Positions 50,095 to 59,083 of a DNA stretch of 64,000 nucleotides are shown one piece after another. Position numbers and translations under genes: made by a program. The stretch is from a virus. The notes below the pieces were generated by a model that had not been told where the DNA came from, made no database searches, and was given only the letters and a program-made list of their open reading frames with translations. The first letter of the stretch is position 1, and the number at the start of each line of letters is the position of its first letter. Where the stretch lies: positions 43,437 through 107,436 of IMG/VR virus record IMGVR_UViG_3300032087_005453, one strand, 5' to 3'.

Positions 50095-52101
50095 TTAGTA
50101 TAATCCATTCATAGCTTGAGTAAACCAGTTAGGACCACTAAATGTAGCGTCTTCTTTGTTTTTACCACTTCCATATTGTGCTGCGAACCCACCATAAGAA
50201 TTATAACCAGGAGTTTCTTCCGTCTTGAGATTTCTGGCCGCCATATTTGCCATTAAAAGGGATGAATAGCGGTCCTTTCTCATTCGAGATTTTTTACCAA
50301 CCCCAATTTTAACTTCAGGAGTATCCCATCTTAATCTACCATTAGCACTTTCAGTAACTTCGATTAGAGATAGTTCGTTTTTTAACTCTTCTATTTCCAT
50401 AACACAATCTTCAAGTGTGTCATATAATCTATCGTTTGCTTTATCTTGCTCAATAGAAAGTCCGATAGTAATGGGGTCAAACCTTGGGAATAAAAGGATC
50501 TTATCTTCAAAGTCTTTTCTCAAACCATGATTAGCGTCGGAGTACCAATCATATCTAGCGAATTGACACATCTCTAAAATGTGAAGACCTTGTTCGTCAT
50601 CTGTTGGTTGTGATTTTTCTGGATTGATTATAGGCCAAATAGCGACTTCACCAGCTTGAATTTGGTTAGAATCATGTAGTGCTTCAGCAACAGCATATCC
50701 ACCACCCTGAGCGTCCATAGCGATGTGTACTATATTAAACAATCCCATTAACTCCCGGATCTTACGAGCACAATAGCTATAGAAGTTATTCTCCTTGGTC
50801 AAACCTTTCTTTACTCGCTCGGTATGGTCTTTTCTTGTTGTTGTCCAGCAATGAACAATCCTTCTGTGATCAGCATGAAGCTCAAGTACCACAATACTAA
50901 AATTATCCACCTCAGAAGCAGGGTCAATAGCCATGAGATACTTTTCATTCTTATTTCCCTTTAAAATAGGATCAAAATATACCTCCCCACTTGCTATCTT
51001 AACTGGTTTTAAATCAGTACCCACACAAGCTTCGATCAAGCTTCTTTTAAAAAACCCCTGACTATCTTTAGTGAATACAGCCCCAAATTCCATTAGATAA
51101 ATACCATTATGAACAGTTGCTTTGGATCTTGCAATTTGTCCTTCATCCATGAACCCTTTAGGAACCATGTCCACCGGAATTCTAATTATGGAGTAATCAT
51201 CCCATTTAAAAGATGGAGGTACATCCTCACCGTTGAAGACATTGTTCGATATAGCCTTTTTATCACCTTTGGTCTCTATCGTCGTCTTCCATTTTTTCCA
51301 ATATTCCGCGAAATGGTTAAAGTCATAATAGGCAGTACCCGATAGAATAATCTGGTTGGACCTGCCTTGCTCCATTGCATCTGTTTTGAATAGTTCAGAC
51401 ACATCCACACCTAATTCTTCCGCTTTTTTCTCGGCGGCTAGTCTACGAACATTATCAATAGGAGAAGATGAAACTGCTGCGAAACCTGCAATGACATTTT
51501 CAAAGATTTCTCTGGACATACTCGCAAATTCGTCTGCGATAATATCATTTGCTCGCTGTCCACGAATCTTTTGACCATCACCGATGGGGAGTGCAGAAAT
51601 GGTACTTCCATTCAAGGTTAGTCTACACATATCCACATCGCGTCTAGGACCGCTACTGCTGTCGCACATGTCTCTTAAAATCGGAGCATTCTTCCAAATA
51701 TTCTCCATATAATCATACAGATACTTCGACTGTCGGAATGCGGCACCAACGACGACTATCTTTCGATTAGGCATCAATATGGCTCGTAACATACAGTACA
51801 ATGAAAGGATAAATGTTTTTCCTAAACCGCGAGATCCAACAAGCATCGGAAACTTCTTGTTCCACATTTCTTTGAGAATAAGTGCCTGCATGGGCAACAA
51901 ATCGACATTGAGAACGTGCTTACAAATAAACGAAAAATAATCCGGGTTGATAAACAAGCAAGTTAGTCGTTTATAAAACTCATCTGGGTCATCGGTCACA
52001 AGCCGCTCAAATGGATTGATAACATATCTATCGTCAACACTAATATTGAGCCAAGCATTATTTAGCTCTTGTATTAACTCTTTACTTAATTTGCCGCTCA
52101 T
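50095..52101 (-). CDS. terL: Terminase large subunit
   Basis: Walker A GSRGLGKT, Walker B IIADEF, RNase H-like AIDPAS...MDAQGGG...KDRYSS. Confidence 0.92.
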   Translation of the reverse strand: MSGKLSKELIQELNNAWLNISVDDRYVINPFERLVTDDPDEFYKRLTCLFINPDYFSFICKHVLNVDLLPMQALILKEMWNKKFPMLVGSRGLGKTFILSLYCMLRAILMPNRKIVVVGAAFRQSKYLYDYMENIWKNAPILRDMCDSSSGPRRDVDMCRLTLNGSTISALPIGDGQKIRGQRANDIIADEFASMSREIFENVIAGFAAVSSSPIDNVRRLAAEKKAEELGVDVSELFKTDAMEQGRSNQIILSGTAYYDFNHFAEYWKKWKTTIETKGDKKAISNNVFNGEDVPPSFKWDDYSIIRIPVDMVPKGFMDEGQIARSKATVHNGIYLMEFGAVFTKDSQGFFKRSLIEACVGTDLKPVKIASGEVYFDPILKGNKNEKYLMAIDPASEVDNFSIVVLELHADHRRIVHCWTTTRKDHTERVKKGLTKENNFYSYCARKIRELMGLFNIVHIAMDAQGGGYAVAEALHDSNQIQAGEVAIWPIINPEKSQPTDDEQGLHILEMCQFARYDWYSDANHGLRKDFEDKILLFPRFDPITIGLSIEQDKANDRLYDTLEDCVMEIEELKNELSLIEVTESANGRLRWDTPEVKIGVGKKSRMRKDRYSSLLMANMAARNLKTEETPGYNSYGGFAAQYGSGKNKEDATFSGPNWFTQAMNGLY

Positions 52102-54747: not shown

Positions 54748-55559
54748 TTATCCTTGTCCTCTTGTTCGTAAAATACGGTTTCTGAATTTAAGAAGGGACG
54801 GTCCACAGCCCCATCTTCGTAAGTATGATAATCTGACAATCGTTTCTTTTCCTCTTCCATTGCCAGACGCATTTTTTCTAAGTATTTACCTTCTGTTTCA
54901 AAGAACTCCGGATCGCGGAGAATTTGCTGAATCAGAGAGGATAGTGTTTTCTTGTTGCTTTCCAGCTTTTGTACACGCTGTTCACGAGTAGCTTTTAGGT
55001 CTTTGTACAATCCGGCTTTTTTTGTTTGCAAGTCTTTGAATTCTCTGGATAGAGATTCTTTGGCTGCACGAAGGCTGGCAATTTGCCGCTCAAGATTAAA
55101 GATCAACTCTTTATCCTGTTGGTCACTGTCGTGTGCCTTTTCAAGCTGGATTTCTGCCTCAAGAATTCTAACGCGATTCATAGATTCTTGTTGTTCCCTC
55201 AAAGCCCGGTTCATCAATACTTCAAGCTTGATAACATCCACAATTTGCAACTCTTCAGTCGCGAGGACATCTTTTCTAAATTGGGCAACAATTTGCTTCC
55301 AGTGATACAAAAATAATTCTAGTTCTTCCTCGCTAAATTGGAGTTTTAACTCCTTCCAATATGGGCGGGATTTGATATCATATTCAGCTTGAACGGTAAA
55401 TGATTCGTGCTTGTTAACGGCTTTTCCGATTTTTTTGAGGTACTTTTCGATAGAGGCTAATGAGCGATCAAGATTTTCCGCAATCTTTTCAGCAGGCAAT
55501 CTGTCGGCATTAGCTTCGATGTACTCCCAATCGGCTTTTGATAGTCTACCAGTCTTCAC
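54744..55559 (-). CDS. Coiled-coil protein, possible terminase small subunit
   Basis: HTH-like N-terminus (AEKIAENLDRSLASIEKYL), long coiled coil, upstream of TerL. Confidence 0.4.
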   Translation of the reverse strand: MKTGRLSKADWEYIEANADRLPAEKIAENLDRSLASIEKYLKKIGKAVNKHESFTVQAEYDIKSRPYWKELKLQFSEEELELFLYHWKQIVAQFRKDVLATEELQIVDVIKLEVLMNRALREQQESMNRVRILEAEIQLEKAHDSDQQDKELIFNLERQIASLRAAKESLSREFKDLQTKKAGLYKDLKATREQRVQKLESNKKTLSSLIQQILRDPEFFETEGKYLEKMRLAMEEEKKRLSDYHTYEDGAVDRPFLNSETVFYEQEDKDK

Positions 55560-56031
55560 CTAAAATACTCCTTACTTTTTCAAACAATGCCTGCTTTTTT
55601 ACAGTTTGAATGCTGACGCCATTAGCAACGCGAAAGAAATCATTTCTCATAGAAGGAGTAAGATTCTCCATCACCAGATCCAAAGCTTCTTGAGTGGTGA
55701 TATTCTGAAAATAATCTTCTGTAAAAGAGAGGTCTCCATCATAAGAATACAAATCCATCAGGTTTTTCTTGGACTCGTTGAGCCTGGCGTGATTCTCGGA
55801 CTCGACGTTGCTGCGAGAATAGTTGTTTCTGATGAATGTTTTTAGCCGCCTGGACAGATGTTTTGAAAGAAAGTTCTCAAGTGGGCGAGATTCGTCGTAT
55901 TTTTCCAGGGCTTCACAGCATATAATATATGCCTCTTGTTTGATGTCATCCGCATCATAATAGCCAAATGTGTATTTAGGGGCGATTCTATCGATTACTT
56001 GAAGAATCGTTTCTAGTTGCTGGTCCGTCAT
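55546..56031 (-). CDS. Phage sigma70-family factor (region 2), probable late sigma
   Basis: DADDIKQEAYIICCEALEKYD..RPLENFL..HL..RL..F.R; start placed at MTDQQ. Confidence 0.75.
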   Translation of the reverse strand: MTDQQLETILQVIDRIAPKYTFGYYDADDIKQEAYIICCEALEKYDESRPLENFLSKHLSRRLKTFIRNNYSRSNVESENHARLNESKKNLMDLYSYDGDLSFTEDYFQNITTQEALDLVMENLTPSMRNDFFRVANGVSIQTVKKQALFEKVRSILGEDW

Positions 56032-56185
56032 CTTTTTGTTCCTGTAGAATATCGGCAAGAGTTACACCTGAAGGATCAGGCTGGTTCAATTCGCGAGCAA
56101 CTGCTTGCTCAAGATCTGTTGTTGCTTTTGCTTTCACGGTTGTCTCCGTTTTTTTAGGTATGTTTACATACCCTATTATACTCAT
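55988..56185 (-). CDS. Hypothetical protein
   Basis: ORF upstream of and overlapping the sigma gene; start uncertain. Confidence 0.35.
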   Translation of the reverse strand: MSIIGYVNIPKKTETTVKAKATTDLEQAVARELNQPDPSGVTLADILQEQKDDGPATRNDSSSNR

Positions 56186-56199
56186 AAAAGAGGAAGAAA

Positions 56200-56646
56200 A
56201 TGTTAGAAATTAAGTTAAATGGCATAAATGGAGCTGGAAAGTTTGCAAAAGTATCGGCTGAAGACTACCCAGTAGTGGCACGACACAGTTGGTATTACCG
56301 CGAGGGATATGCAATTGCCCAAGTCGATGGCCGCGAAGTAAGAATGCACAGGTTTATTATGAAACCTGAATTGGACGCAACGATGTATTCTGATCAGTAT
56401 GTGGTAGACCACAAAGATCGTGACCGCCTCAACAACACCCGCGAAAATTTGCGTCTTCTGTCGCACGTCCAAAACGCCAATAACCGCGAAGATAATGTTT
56501 TTGTGGAATGCTTTGGAGAATCAAAAACAGTAGCTCAATGGAGCCGTGACGAGCGTTGTACGGTGCCTTATGCAGTTCTGCGTGGACGACTGCGAAAAGG
56601 AATAGCTGCTTGGGAGGCAATTTTGGCTCCTGCTGATGCTGAGTAG
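56200..56646 (+). CDS. HNH homing-endonuclease-like protein
   Basis: GAGG RBS; MHRFIM...VVDHKDRDRLNNTRENLR...QNA.NR. Confidence 0.85.
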   Translation: MLEIKLNGINGAGKFAKVSAEDYPVVARHSWYYREGYAIAQVDGREVRMHRFIMKPELDATMYSDQYVVDHKDRDRLNNTRENLRLLSHVQNANNREDNVFVECFGESKTVAQWSRDERCTVPYAVLRGRLRKGIAAWEAILAPADAE

Positions 56647-56780
56647 GTGAGTATAGCCAATACATTTTATGTTTGAGTTGATGATCGTGGATGAACCTCC
56701 CCCGCAAAATTCTCACAAATAGTAAACCCTTCTCTTTCAAGATAAAACCCCACCCGTTGCTTATTTCCTAAAGATTATCC

Positions 56781-56808
56781 TGTACAACGTCGATAATTAT
56801 GGTACAAT
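56781..56808 (+). promoter_or_regulatory. Early sigma70-like promoter P1
   Basis: TGTACA-N16 (acGTCGATA...)-TACAAT. Confidence 0.7.
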
Positions 56809-56840
56809 ACCAGTATCTGACAACCACAAGGAAATAAACA

Positions 56841-57002
56841 ATGTTCGCGACCTACACCAAATCTCAATCGCTCGTCTTCAAAGAACTTTCAGATCGTGGC
56901 GAAGATCTGTACATTGATGGTGACGGATTTCATTTCAACGCAATAGTTTTCGATAATTTCCGCGAATTCTTCTCATTCTGTAAAGACCAGCTTGACAAAT
57001 AG
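56841..57002 (+). CDS. Small hypothetical protein (53 aa, MFATYTKSQS...)
   Basis: AAGGA RBS after P1; below the ORF-track cutoff; translated by hand. Confidence 0.6.
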   Translation: MFATYTKSQSLVFKELSDRGEDLYIDGDGFHFNAIVFDNFREFFSFCKDQLDK

Positions 57003-57021
57003 CCGATAAATATAGTACAAT
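56992..57021 (+). promoter_or_regulatory. Early promoter P2
   Basis: TTGACA-N18 (GCCGATA)-TACAAT. Confidence 0.65.
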
Positions 57022-57057
57022 ACCCGTATGACAGTCAACAACCCAAAAGGAAATACA

Positions 57058-57249
57058 ATGTCAGCTTTTACTGCTCAGATCACAACTATCGTTGATGGTG
57101 TCGTTACCGATGTCTCTGAGGCTCCTTTTGCGAACAAACAGAATGCCATCAGCTTTGTGTATCCATTTTACAAAAGAAGTCACAATCAATACCGCACCTA
57201 TAAGGTTCGCGTGATTCGAAATTCCGATGGTGTTGTGGTATTCGCGTAA
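57058..57249 (+). CDS. Small hypothetical protein (MSAFTAQ...)
   Basis: AAGGA RBS; start reassigned to 57058. Confidence 0.7.
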   Translation: MSAFTAQITTIVDGVVTDVSEAPFANKQNAISFVYPFYKRSHNQYRTYKVRVIRNSDGVVVFA

Positions 57250-57269
57250 TCAGAGAGCAAACACTGTAG

Positions 57270-57302
57270 GGACCGCGACAAAGCGGTCTTACAGGACCGC
57301 TT
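57270..57302 (+). repeat. Cassette-boundary double-hairpin element E1 (family A)
   Basis: GGACCGCGACAAAGCGGTCTTACAGGACCGCTT. Confidence 0.9.
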
Positions 57303-57361
57303 GTGTTTATGACTACCCTAAGAAATGTCCAGAAACTTTCCAGAAACTATGGAGAATAATC

Positions 57362-57389
57362 TGGACACGGTCGATGTATACACTATACT
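57362..57389 (+). promoter_or_regulatory. Early promoter P3
   Basis: TGGACA-N16 (cgGTCGATG...)-TATACT. Confidence 0.7.
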
Positions 57390-57441
57390 TCCCGTGTGAC
57401 ATGTGAGTCACGTTTCTTCCCTCTCTCTCAGGAGTGTTCAG

Positions 57442-57618
57442 ATGGATGACTTTTCTTCTCAGCTTCAGTGTGAAGATGTTTGTGGCGAAGCGGAATACTA
57501 TGCTGCTCAGGAATGGGCGGCAGAGTGTGAGCGTGAGCGACAGCGAGGACTTCAGGATCAGGAAGATCTCGGATGGCCAGAGTTCTGGCAAATGATTCGC
57601 GATCAGGCTACCAAGTAG
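57442..57618 (+). CDS. Small acidic protein, paralog 1 (MDDFSSQLQCED...)
   Basis: AGGAG RBS; paralog at 58550. Confidence 0.75.
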   Translation: MDDFSSQLQCEDVCGEAEYYAAQEWAAECERERQRGLQDQEDLGWPEFWQMIRDQATK

Positions 57619-57634
57619 CTCACCCATCAAGGCC

Positions 57635-57672
57635 ACCCGGAGCCTACAATCCGGGTCTCTTTCCCTCTCTTT
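57635..57672 (+). terminator. Hairpin followed by a pyrimidine tract
   Basis: ACCCGGA-gcctacaa-TCCGGGT then CTCTTTCCCTCTCTTTT. Confidence 0.4.
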
Positions 57673-57684
57673 TAAGGCTTTCAA

Positions 57685-57900
57685 ATGTTTGTAAAAACCT
57701 CAACTTTTGATGCGGCTCAGGCTTTCCCCGTTGATTCCGTGTGGCGGGATATGAACAACGACACCCTGAGAGTTCTGGCTGTTGATGAAAATAAAGTTTG
57801 GTTTTTCATGATGATCGAAGGAGTATGGGCTGACGTTTCCCCACAAGCGGTTGATGTTCAACAAGCGGTTGCCGATTGGATTCCAGTCAGGGGGGTTTGA
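57685..57900 (+). CDS. Small hypothetical protein
   Basis: AAGG RBS; ends just before E2. Confidence 0.65.
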   Translation: MFVKTSTFDAAQAFPVDSVWRDMNNDTLRVLAVDENKVWFFMMIEGVWADVSPQAVDVQQAVADWIPVRGV

Positions 57901-57919
57901 TTGCAAGGTGTTCCATAAG

Positions 57920-57952
57920 GGACCGCGACGAAGCGGTCCTACGGGACCGCTT
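57920..57952 (+). repeat. Element E2 (family A) with C(UACG)G tetraloop
   Basis: GGACCGCGACGAAGCGGTCCTACGGGACCGCTT. Confidence 0.9.
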
Positions 57953-58012
57953 GCGTTTGTGCTGTTCTTGGTAAATGTCCGAAAACTTTCCCATAAAGTT
58001 GGAGGAATAGTA

Positions 58013-58040
58013 TGGACATAGTCGATACTTATGATATAAT
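58013..58040 (+). promoter_or_regulatory. Early promoter P4
   Basis: TGGACA-N16 (taGTCGATA...)-TATAAT. Confidence 0.75.
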
Positions 58041-58084
58041 TCAAAGCCGTGTGACACCTCTCCCTCTTTCTTAGGAAATCTGAA

Positions 58085-58453
58085 ATGCGTATCTTCTTCA
58101 AAATTTTCGGCCTGTTCATCGCTGTTGGTCGCCAGTTTGGCAACTGCTTCGCACCCGCGTTGGTGCTGGAGTGGTACGGCGTTCGCCGTCGTGTTTCCTC
58201 TCATTCCCTCACTCGTCGGCCTGAGGCTCTTGATCGGCCTGAGGTGTTTTATCACCCCGCGTGGGCAAAATTCACCATCCGCACCAGCGGTCATGCGGAA
58301 ACCGTCATCTACTGGCGTGGGTGGTTCCGGTTTGGCTGGAATTCTGAGCACATTGCTCAGCGTTTCGGCAAGTGTGAAGACCATTCCAATTATGGTGGTC
58401 CGGTTGAATTTTATAGTTATCGGGGAATTCTTGGCACCCACCAAGCACTTTAG
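58085..58453 (+). CDS. Hypothetical basic/aromatic protein
   Basis: AGGA RBS after P4. Confidence 0.6.
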   Translation: MRIFFKIFGLFIAVGRQFGNCFAPALVLEWYGVRRRVSSHSLTRRPEALDRPEVFYHPAWAKFTIRTSGHAETVIYWRGWFRFGWNSEHIAQRFGKCEDHSNYGGPVEFYSYRGILGTHQAL

Positions 58454-58478
58454 GGGCCAAATAATTAAAGGGTTGGCC

Positions 58479-58506
58479 TGGACATGGTCGATATATATGG
58501 TATACT
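58479..58506 (+). promoter_or_regulatory. Early promoter P5
   Basis: TGGACA-N16 (tgGTCGATA...)-TATACT. Confidence 0.7.
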
Positions 58507-58549
58507 TCACTATCTGAAGTTGAGTTTCTTTTTGTTCGGGAGTTTTGAG

Positions 58550-58732
58550 ATGGATGACTTTTCTTGCCAGATTCAGTGTGATGAGATGGATGCTCAGGAA
58601 TACCACATGGCTCAGGAATGGGCCGCTGAGTGCGAGCGTGAACGGTGGGAACTTTGGGCGTGCGTTGACGCAGAATATCAGCGTGAGGAAGATTGGCAAG
58701 AATTTTGGGCGGAGGTGCGAGCTAATGCGTGA
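58550..58732 (+). CDS. Small acidic protein, paralog 2 (MDDFSCQIQCDE...)
   Basis: GGGAG RBS; shares AQEWAAECERER with 57442. Confidence 0.75.
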   Translation: MDDFSCQIQCDEMDAQEYHMAQEWAAECERERWELWACVDAEYQREEDWQEFWAEVRANA

Positions 58733-58829
58733 TCGAACTACGGAAACCCTGATTGCCCTAGTTATGGGGCTTTTAGGGTTTGGCGGCTGGTATTATCTTT
58801 TGATCTGTTTTCAGAATATGGGAGTTTGA
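58725..58829 (+). CDS. 34-aa single-TM membrane peptide, paralog 1
   Basis: GGAGGT RBS; hydrophobic; paralog at 59914. Confidence 0.65.
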   Translation: MRDRTTETLIALVMGLLGFGGWYYLLICFQNMGV

Positions 58830-58831
58830 GT

Positions 58832-58972
58832 ATGTTCTACATTGCTTTTGATGGCTTCGATCTTTTCAAGCTGCACTTTGCAACCCGCGAAGCTGCACAG
58901 AAGCACCTCGATGATAACTACATGAAGCTGGCACGCCATTGCCAGTATCAGGTAGCGGTGTATGAGAAGTGA
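58832..58972 (+). CDS. Small hypothetical protein (46 aa, MFYIAFDG...)
   Basis: GGGAG RBS; translated by hand; ends before E3. Confidence 0.6.
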   Translation: MFYIAFDGFDLFKLHFATREAAQKHLDDNYMKLARHCQYQVAVYEK

Positions 58973-58989
58973 GCCGGGCTGGCACATTA

Positions 58990-59022
58990 GGACCGCGACG
59001 AAGCGGTCTTGCAGGACCGCTT
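58990..59022 (+). repeat. Element E3 (family A)
   Basis: GGACCGCGACGAAGCGGTCTTGCAGGACCGCTT. Confidence 0.9.
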
Positions 59023-59083
59023 ATGTTTGTGCAGTTCCTTGGGAATATTTCCCGAAATCTCTGGAATACTTTGGGGATTGATC

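What the first reader, a model, noticed from the sequence alone, without database searches (positions are those of the whole stretch)
57920..57960. The element has mutually exclusive hairpins and a compensatory base change
Seen: in family A the central GCGGTC can pair with the upstream GACCGC or with a downstream GACCGC. The downstream hairpin has a C(UACG)G tetraloop in E2 and a T-rich tail. Between families AAGCGG/CCGCTT becomes GAGCGG/CCGCTC, a compensatory change supporting the downstream stem. The 5' GACCGCGAC stays invariant even though its pairing shrinks to 4 bp in family B. Inference: a terminator with an overlapping antiterminator or protein-binding box, allowing controlled read-through.
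Basis: partly seen in the sequence, partly recalled or inferred. Interest (0 to 1): 0.7.

Follow-up and report, generated by a model that had tools for sequence, protein, structure and literature searches.

The report
Boxed hairpin punctuating phage early operons
A GC-rich RNA hairpin, always preceded by a short sequence box, ends each small early-gene group in an uncultured aquatic phage and its relatives; the hairpin is real, but comparison with relatives does not support the proposed switch between two competing hairpins.

Summary
The sequence observation is correct. Six co-oriented intergenic copies of GACCGCGAC, each followed by a 9-bp hairpin, lie at 57271-62428 (0.07 copies expected by chance). 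In family A the central arm can pair upstream or downstream.

I found 21 homologous elements in six related phage genomes, plus more in metagenomes.

- **Downstream hairpin:** it shows strong covariation (94% of cells paired, 6 of 9 pairs compensated, 0 of 500 shuffles as good).
- **Upstream alternative hairpin:** it does no better than shuffles. It cannot form in five 'flipped' elements that still keep the box.
- **Box:** across genomes it reduces to R-R-CCGC-NN-C. Every hairpin of this type found without asking for the box still had it.
- **U tail:** it is weak here (4-5 U of 8, interrupted) and absent in relatives. Canonical terminators with long U runs exist elsewhere in this genome.

Best reading: this is the stem-loop half of PeSL-like stem-loop/promoter cassettes in a hyperplastic early region. 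The RNA hairpin marks or protects early transcript 3' ends and terminates only leakily. The box is kept for its sequence, not for antiterminator pairing.

A factor-controlled read-through or processing site is not excluded. The finding is a new variant of a known kind, of moderate interest.

The parts
57271..57302 (+). Element A1: box 57271-57279, hairpin 57281-57302 (9 bp, top pair U.G, loop UACA). The alternative upstream pairing uses 57270-57276 with 57283-57289.
57921..57952 (+). Element A2, the finding itself: box 57921-57929, hairpin 57931-57952 (9 bp, C(UACG)G loop). The alternative upstream pairing uses 57920-57926 with 57933-57939.
58991..59022 (+). Element A3: box 58991-58999, hairpin 59001-59022.
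60105..60136 (+). Element B1: box 60105-60113, hairpin 60115-60136 (7 bp, then a bulged G, then 2 bp).
61437..61468 (+). Element B2: box 61437-61445, hairpin 61447-61468.
62397..62428 (+). Element B3: box 62397-62405, hairpin 62407-62428. The stop codon of the upstream ORF ends at 62395.
57362..57389 (+). Sigma-70-like promoter of cassette A1 (TGGACA, 16-nt spacer, TATACT; GTCGAT in the spacer).
58013..58040 (+). Promoter of cassette A2 (TGGACA, 16-nt spacer, TATAAT; GTCGAT in the spacer).
59084..59111 (+). Promoter of cassette A3 (TGGACA, 16-nt spacer, TACAAT).
60187..60214 (+). Promoter of cassette B1 (TTGACA, 16-nt spacer, TACAAT; GTCGAT four bases nearer the -10 than in family A).
61519..61546 (+). 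Promoter of cassette B2 (TTGACA, 16-nt spacer, TATAAT).
62479..62506 (+). Promoter of cassette B3 (TTGACA, 16-nt spacer, TACAAT).

Best explanation
Each element is one unit: a 9-nt box followed, one or two bases later, by a 9-bp GC-rich hairpin. It sits on the sense strand at the end of a small early transcription unit. Together with the sigma-70-like promoter 80-90 nt downstream it forms a ~130-nt stem-loop/promoter cassette, repeated six times. This is the same design as the PeSL cassettes of T4-like phages.

Shown: the hairpin is a selected structure, and the box always goes with it.

Inferred:
- The hairpin forms in the early RNA and marks or protects transcript 3' ends.
- In this phage a short interrupted U stretch may give leaky termination. 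In relatives without U it would act as a stabilising or processing hairpin.
- The box and the conserved stem base are kept for their sequence and are probably read together by RNA polymerase or a factor.
- The competing upstream hairpin of family A exists because the box is a copy of the 3' arm. At most it makes those three copies leakier. It is not a conserved switch.
For: Position: all six copies follow the last ORF of a gene group and precede a promoter. In relatives two copies directly follow tRNA 3' ends.

Hairpin covariation in 22 elements: 94.4% of cells paired, 6 of 9 pairs with changes on both sides, score 0.387 vs 0.118 in shuffles, 0 of 500 shuffles as good. RNAalifold on 27 elements returns only this helix.

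The box accompanies every hairpin of this type found without asking for the box (metagenome scan).

Between genomes the early regions share only the HNH-like gene, a few scattered ORF-sized stretches and short matches at the elements. This fits conserved cassettes in a hyperplastic region, as described for PeSLs (PMC4122927, PMC2839356).
Against: There is no transcript data. The U tail is poor here and absent in relatives, so termination is unproven. The role of the box is unexplained by this model. G.U against A.C counts do not tell the strands apart: there are 3 U.G and 3 A.C cells at the end pairs. An RNA rather than a DNA hairpin is inferred only from position and orientation.
Confidence: 0.45

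Rival explanations
1. First reader's model. This is a terminator/antiterminator switch. The box pairs with the 5' arm in the nascent RNA and blocks the terminator hairpin, and a signal or protein shifts the balance to control read-through.
For: In family A the two hairpins are nearly isoenergetic, and the nascent RNA would fold the upstream one first (-14.5 to -16.5 kcal/mol). At least a 4-bp CCGC/GCGG pairing is possible in 20 of the 22 aligned elements.
Against: There is no covariation above shuffles. The extension beyond 4 bp is lineage-specific. When pair 20-33 of the hairpin flips, the box does not follow. Five flipped elements, including all three in L347, cannot form the upstream hairpin yet keep the box. 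In the box-free metagenome set four box variants allow only 3 bp. The U tail needed for a terminator is not conserved.
Confidence: 0.12
2. The box plus the stem base is the binding site of a trans-acting phage or host factor. That factor would control read-through, termination or RNA cleavage at each operon end, working like nut/N, RAT/BglG or a hairpin-specific endoribonuclease.
For: The box always co-occurs with the hairpin at fixed spacing. The stem base is conserved while the top and loop vary. A 49-aa ORF with an arginine-rich C-terminal half lies at 63514-63663, with a weak homologue in G001.
Against: No candidate binding protein was identified by family searches. Positions 7-8 of the box vary within single genomes. 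The loops are not conserved, unlike boxB.
Confidence: 0.2
3. This is a DNA-level signal. It could be a recombination hot spot that shuffles cassettes, or a site for a strand-specific nick or hairpin-binding enzyme such as the conserved HNH-like protein at 56200-56646.
For: The cassettes are the main sequence shared between otherwise unrelated early regions, and they look homogenised within each genome. The HNH-like gene is syntenic in all element-bearing relatives. The 5-mer GCSGC occurs three times about one helical turn apart.
Against: Covariation of the stem top requires a folded single strand. No tyrosine recombinase or Y1 transposase is present in the held 68%-complete contig. Recombination at cassettes could be a consequence rather than the function.
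Confidence: 0.13

Closest known systems
PeSL (promoter-early stem-loop) cassettes of T4-like phages (PMC2839356, PMC4122927)
   Same: Both are a composite of a stem-loop followed by a near-consensus sigma-70 promoter. Both are repeated in a variable early region between small ORFans, and are conserved while the genes between them differ.
   Different: This is an unrelated, uncultured phage clade (terminase about 26% identical to Bacillus phage Basilisk). There is an obligatory 5' box. The stem base is conserved across genomes. No U/T run follows the stem in most relatives.
Canonical intrinsic (Rho-independent) terminator
   Same: A GC-rich 7-9-bp hairpin with a short loop at the end of a transcription unit, in the sense orientation.
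   Different: The U tract is interrupted here and absent in relatives. True hairpin plus U-run terminators occur elsewhere in this genome.
Terminator/antiterminator attenuators (for example RAT/BglG-type)
   Same: In family A three arms allow 1:2 or 2:3 pairing, which overlaps the terminator's 5' arm.
   Different: The 1:2 helix is not conserved, does not covary, and is impossible in flipped elements. The element lies at the operon end, not in a leader.
Lambdoid nut sites (boxA plus boxB)
   Same: A linear box followed closely by a short hairpin on the transcript, lying between genes. This comparison is from my own knowledge.
   Different: The loop is not conserved. There are six copies, one per operon end. 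No N-like family hit was found.
REP elements of enterobacteria
   Same: Extragenic GC-rich palindromes after stop codons, with a conserved short 5' motif and no U tail. They are known to stabilise upstream mRNA (from my own knowledge).
   Different: The elements here are single and all in one orientation. No RAYT/Y1 transposase was found. They lie in a phage genome and are linked to promoters.
Stoperators of cluster A mycobacteriophages (PMC9283540)
   Same: Short asymmetric sites in intergenic regions, all oriented with transcription.
   Different: Stoperators are duplex DNA repressor sites without a hairpin. Here a covarying hairpin is part of the unit, and no repressor or integrase was found.

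Membership tests
Intrinsic terminator | Stable GC-rich hairpin at the 3' end of a transcription unit, in the sense orientation | tested here: met
   -14 to -20.6 kcal/mol in 13 elements. The elements lie after the last ORFs or after tRNA genes.
Intrinsic terminator | Run of U immediately 3' of the stem | tested here: not met
   In the window there are 4-5 U of 8, with only one U in the first three bases. Relatives have 0-4 of 8 and are often A-rich. Canonical terminators in the same genome have 6-8.
PeSL-type stem-loop/promoter cassette | Stem-loop followed by an early sigma-70-type promoter, repeated many times | tested here: met
   Six copies, with the promoter 82-92 nt after the box. The same layout occurs in relatives.
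PeSL-type stem-loop/promoter cassette | Located in hyperplastic regions and flanking genes that differ between related phages | tested here: met
   Early regions share only the HNH-like gene, a few scattered ORF-sized stretches and the cassettes.
PeSL-type stem-loop/promoter cassette | Insertions and deletions between very close relatives have their breakpoints at the cassettes | not tested
Terminator/antiterminator attenuator | Two mutually exclusive helices sharing one arm | tested here: met
   Met in family A only in a meaningful way. Family B has 4 bp.
Terminator/antiterminator attenuator | The antiterminator helix is conserved and covaries among homologues | tested here: not met
   79.2% paired vs 77.9% in shuffles, 146 of 500 as good. 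Five flipped elements cannot form it.
Lambdoid nut site | Hairpin with a conserved purine-rich loop bound by an N-type arginine-rich peptide | tested here: not met
   The loops differ freely. There is no N-like family hit for the Arg-rich ORF.
Integron attC / REP-RAYT mobile hairpins | A cognate tyrosine recombinase or Y1 transposase in the genome | tested here: not met
   PF00589 and PF01797 give no match in the contig. The contig is estimated 68% complete, so absence is not proven.
Known RNA families (Rfam 15) | Match to a curated covariance model | tested here: not met
   No relevant hit in 55500-64000 at E up to 1.

The most novel reading that the evidence does not exclude
The box plus the conserved stem base is a dedicated recognition site for an unknown phage or host factor. 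That factor would decide, at each early operon end, whether the transcript is ended, cut or read through. This would be a distributed per-operon control system, common to a very large uncultured aquatic phage clade (more than 3,800 terminase relatives).
Probability: 0.25. Interest if true: 0.55.

Novelty: new variant of a known kind. Interest (0 to 1): 0.33.

Why it matters
It gives a defined, covariation-backed RNA element and a search model for the early regions of an abundant but uncultured phage clade. It extends the 'mobile regulatory cassette' idea from T4-like myoviruses to an unrelated group. It also isolates a short box whose strict association with the hairpin calls for a binding partner. 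For the specific claim of a riboswitch-like hairpin switch, the comparative data are negative.

Tried and rejected
- **Pattern scans of IMG/VR for the exact box:** these gave only chance hits in GC-rich contigs. Two false leads came up. L119 is an unrelated low-GC contig where the upstream-type hairpin plus a T run is a plain terminator. L227 is a weak, coding-like match.
- **Megablast against GenBank phages:** no match.
- **Rfam:** nothing.
- **Integron-like or REP-like mobility:** no integrase or Y1 transposase.
- **Chi-like reading of AGCGG:** the 5-mer is common on both strands genome-wide (63 and 90 copies), so it was dropped.
- **N4-type DNA hairpin promoter and primase-site readings:** rejected on anatomy, since sigma-70 promoters lie downstream and the GAC of the box is not conserved across genomes.
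- **Lower-stem extension pairing the box with the tail:** seen in the fold of the 57921 copy, but not conserved.

Full report
**Context.** The window is the last 64 kb of a 107,436-bp linear phage contig with 38% G+C, estimated 68% complete.
- The large terminase is only about 26% identical to those of Bacillus phages.
- It has thousands of unnamed relatives in aquatic metagenomes.
- The region 56-64 kb is richer in G+C (45-46%). It holds many small + strand ORFs without family matches, apart from an HNH-like protein and an L5 gp82-like protein.

**The observation.** GACCGCGAC occurs six times, all on the + strand, against 0.07 expected. These are the only copies in the contig.
- Each copy is followed, after one base, by a hairpin of 9 positions.
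- Family A (57271, 57921, 58991) has a perfect 9-bp stem with a tetraloop. The 57921 copy has C(UACG)G.
- Family B (60105, 61437, 62397) has 7 bp, a bulged G and 2 more pairs.
- In family A the central arm pairs equally well with the box. Energies are -12.9 to -14.9 kcal/mol upstream against -14.0 to -17.9 downstream. The upstream form wins the minimum-energy fold in two copies.
- In family B only CCGC/GCGG (4 bp, -7.6 kcal/mol) is left.
- The A-U to G-C exchange at the stem base between families is real.
Only the 'T-rich tail' is overstated: it has 4-5 T of 8, interrupted, with one T in the first three positions.

**Surroundings.** Every element follows the last ORF of a small gene group. Each lies 82-92 nt upstream of a sigma-70-like promoter with a 16-nt spacer and a GTCGAT box in the spacer. 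That box sits in one register in family A and four bases nearer the -10 in family B. The whole ~130 nt is repeated. Other promoters of the same types occur without an element.

**Relatives.** Exact-box scans of IMG/VR gave only chance hits. A looser pattern and a covariance model built from the first 13 elements found homologous elements in six other phage records:
- six in G001, a 130-kb contig with 81% terminase identity;
- six in G006;
- three in the contig of L234;
- one in G005;
- two in G008;
- three in L347.

In each genome the elements cluster in one 5-11-kb stretch, downstream of the conserved HNH-like gene, and are co-oriented with the genes. Most are followed by a promoter. Two sit directly behind tRNA 3' ends. 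Between genomes the early regions share little beyond the HNH-like gene, a few scattered ORF-sized stretches and short matches at the elements.

**Test of the two helices.**
- *Downstream hairpin, 22 ungapped elements:* 94.4% of cells paired, six of nine pairs with changes on both sides, covariation score 0.387 against 0.118 in shuffles (0 of 500 as good). It collapses when the partner columns are slid. RNAalifold on 27 elements with flanks predicts this helix and nothing else. At least eight different compensated stem tops exist.
- *Upstream alternative helix:* 79.2% paired against 77.9% in shuffles (146 of 500 as good), with a covariation score no better than the controls. Its four inner pairs hardly vary and so carry no information. 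Its outer pairs are present in some lineages (window family A, most of G001 and G006) and absent in others (window family B, two L234 elements).
- *Flipped elements:* in five elements the hairpin pair 20-33 is flipped from G-C to C-G or otherwise rearranged. The 5' arm then reads like the box instead of complementing it, and the upstream helix cannot form. The box is kept all the same, including in all three elements of L347.

**The box.**
- Across genomes only R-R-CCGC-NN-C is conserved. The GAC of the window is one of several variants, and positions 7-8 of the box vary even within single genomes. The strict invariance of all nine bases in the window therefore partly reflects homogenisation of copies within one genome.
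- The box is nonetheless obligatory. A regular-expression search for the hairpin alone in all held relatives found 22 elements, and all 22 had the box on the sense side.
- A metagenome scan anchored only on one hairpin type and its first tail bases returned about 27 distinct phage-context elements. All of them have a box of this form, a few with a degenerate CCGC that leaves only 3 bp of possible upstream pairing. The roughly dozen GC-rich chance hits had no box.

**Is it a terminator?** The hairpins are strong, but the tail is poor in the window and lacks U in relatives (0-4 of 8, A-rich in G001, G005 and L347). The same genome has classical terminators with runs of 6-8 T after the stem in its other regions. 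In G006, G001 and G005 a second hairpin follows the element. Efficient intrinsic termination is therefore not the conserved function. A 3'-end hairpin (leaky terminator here, stabilising or processing hairpin generally) fits the position better. No transcript data exist to show it.

**Comparison with known systems.**
- The closest known design is the PeSL cassette of T4-like phages. It is a stem-loop plus a near-consensus early promoter, repeated in hyperplastic regions and thought to mediate modular shuffling (PMC2839356, PMC4122927).
- The present elements share that design and genomic behaviour. They occur in an unrelated phage clade, carry an obligatory 5' box and a stem base conserved across genomes, and mostly lack the T run.
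- Attenuators, nut sites, REP elements and stoperators each share one or two features but fail a defining one (see the membership table).
- No Rfam family matches.

**Verdict.** The structure-level observation is right, and the compensatory change is one of many. The mechanism offered, a terminator with an overlapping antiterminator, is not supported by comparison. The 'protein-binding box' half of the inference remains open and is the most interesting residue. I rate this a new variant of a known kind, of moderate interest.

**Limits.**
- The host is unknown and there are no expression data.
- Elements within a genome are not independent.
- The covariance-model hits were selected with the box in the model. 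The two box-free searches address this.

Noticed in passing
window 56781-62506: At least ten sigma-70-like promoters with 16-nt spacers carry GTCGAT in the spacer. It sits in two registers that track element families A and B. Relatives have (GT)CGAT at the same places.
   Followed up: partly
window 63514-63663: A 49-aa ORF whose C-terminal half is arginine-rich. It has a weak homologue (47% identity over 38 aa) in the early region of G001 (L215 1923-2033). No PHROG match; Pfam was not run on it.
   Followed up: partly
window 56200-56646: An HNH-like protein (Pfam HNH_3) is the one early-region gene found in every element-bearing relative with that stretch held (60-67% identity). It always lies just upstream of the element cluster, so it is probably not a mobile homing endonuclease.
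   Followed up: partly
window 57330-57367 and 57978-58018: Inverted repeats between the hairpin and the promoter. In A1 the arms are GTCCAG and CTGGAC; in A2 they are ATGTCC and GGACAT. The right arm overlaps the -35 hexamer. There is also an inner TCCA-N7-TGGA palindrome in A1. These are possible operators.
   Followed up: no
L215 (G001) and L142/L345 (G005); metagenome loci L361-L406: In these relatives the hairpin is followed at a fixed distance by RTGCCAAA. Palindromes of the type TGCCAAAATGGCA are scattered through the early region, one abutting the box. This looks like a second conserved, operator-like motif.
   Followed up: no
window 61385-61425: A strong 12-bp hairpin about 12 nt upstream of element B2, with no T run after it. 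Relatives also often have a strong hairpin just upstream of the box.
   Followed up: no
In relatives G006 and G008 ordinary tRNA 3' ends lie directly upstream of elements.
   Followed up: no
window 57442-57618 vs 58550-58732; 58725-58829 vs 59839-60021: Two pairs of paralogous small early ORFs: an acidic Trp-rich pair and a pair with a shared C-terminal membrane helix. This shows duplication of cassette contents.
   Followed up: no
relatives of window 50095-52101; L152: Many terminase homologues in the clade are about 1,000 aa long and carry intein or homing-endonuclease domains (PF14528, PF14890). The G001 terminase match begins only at residue 96.
   Followed up: no
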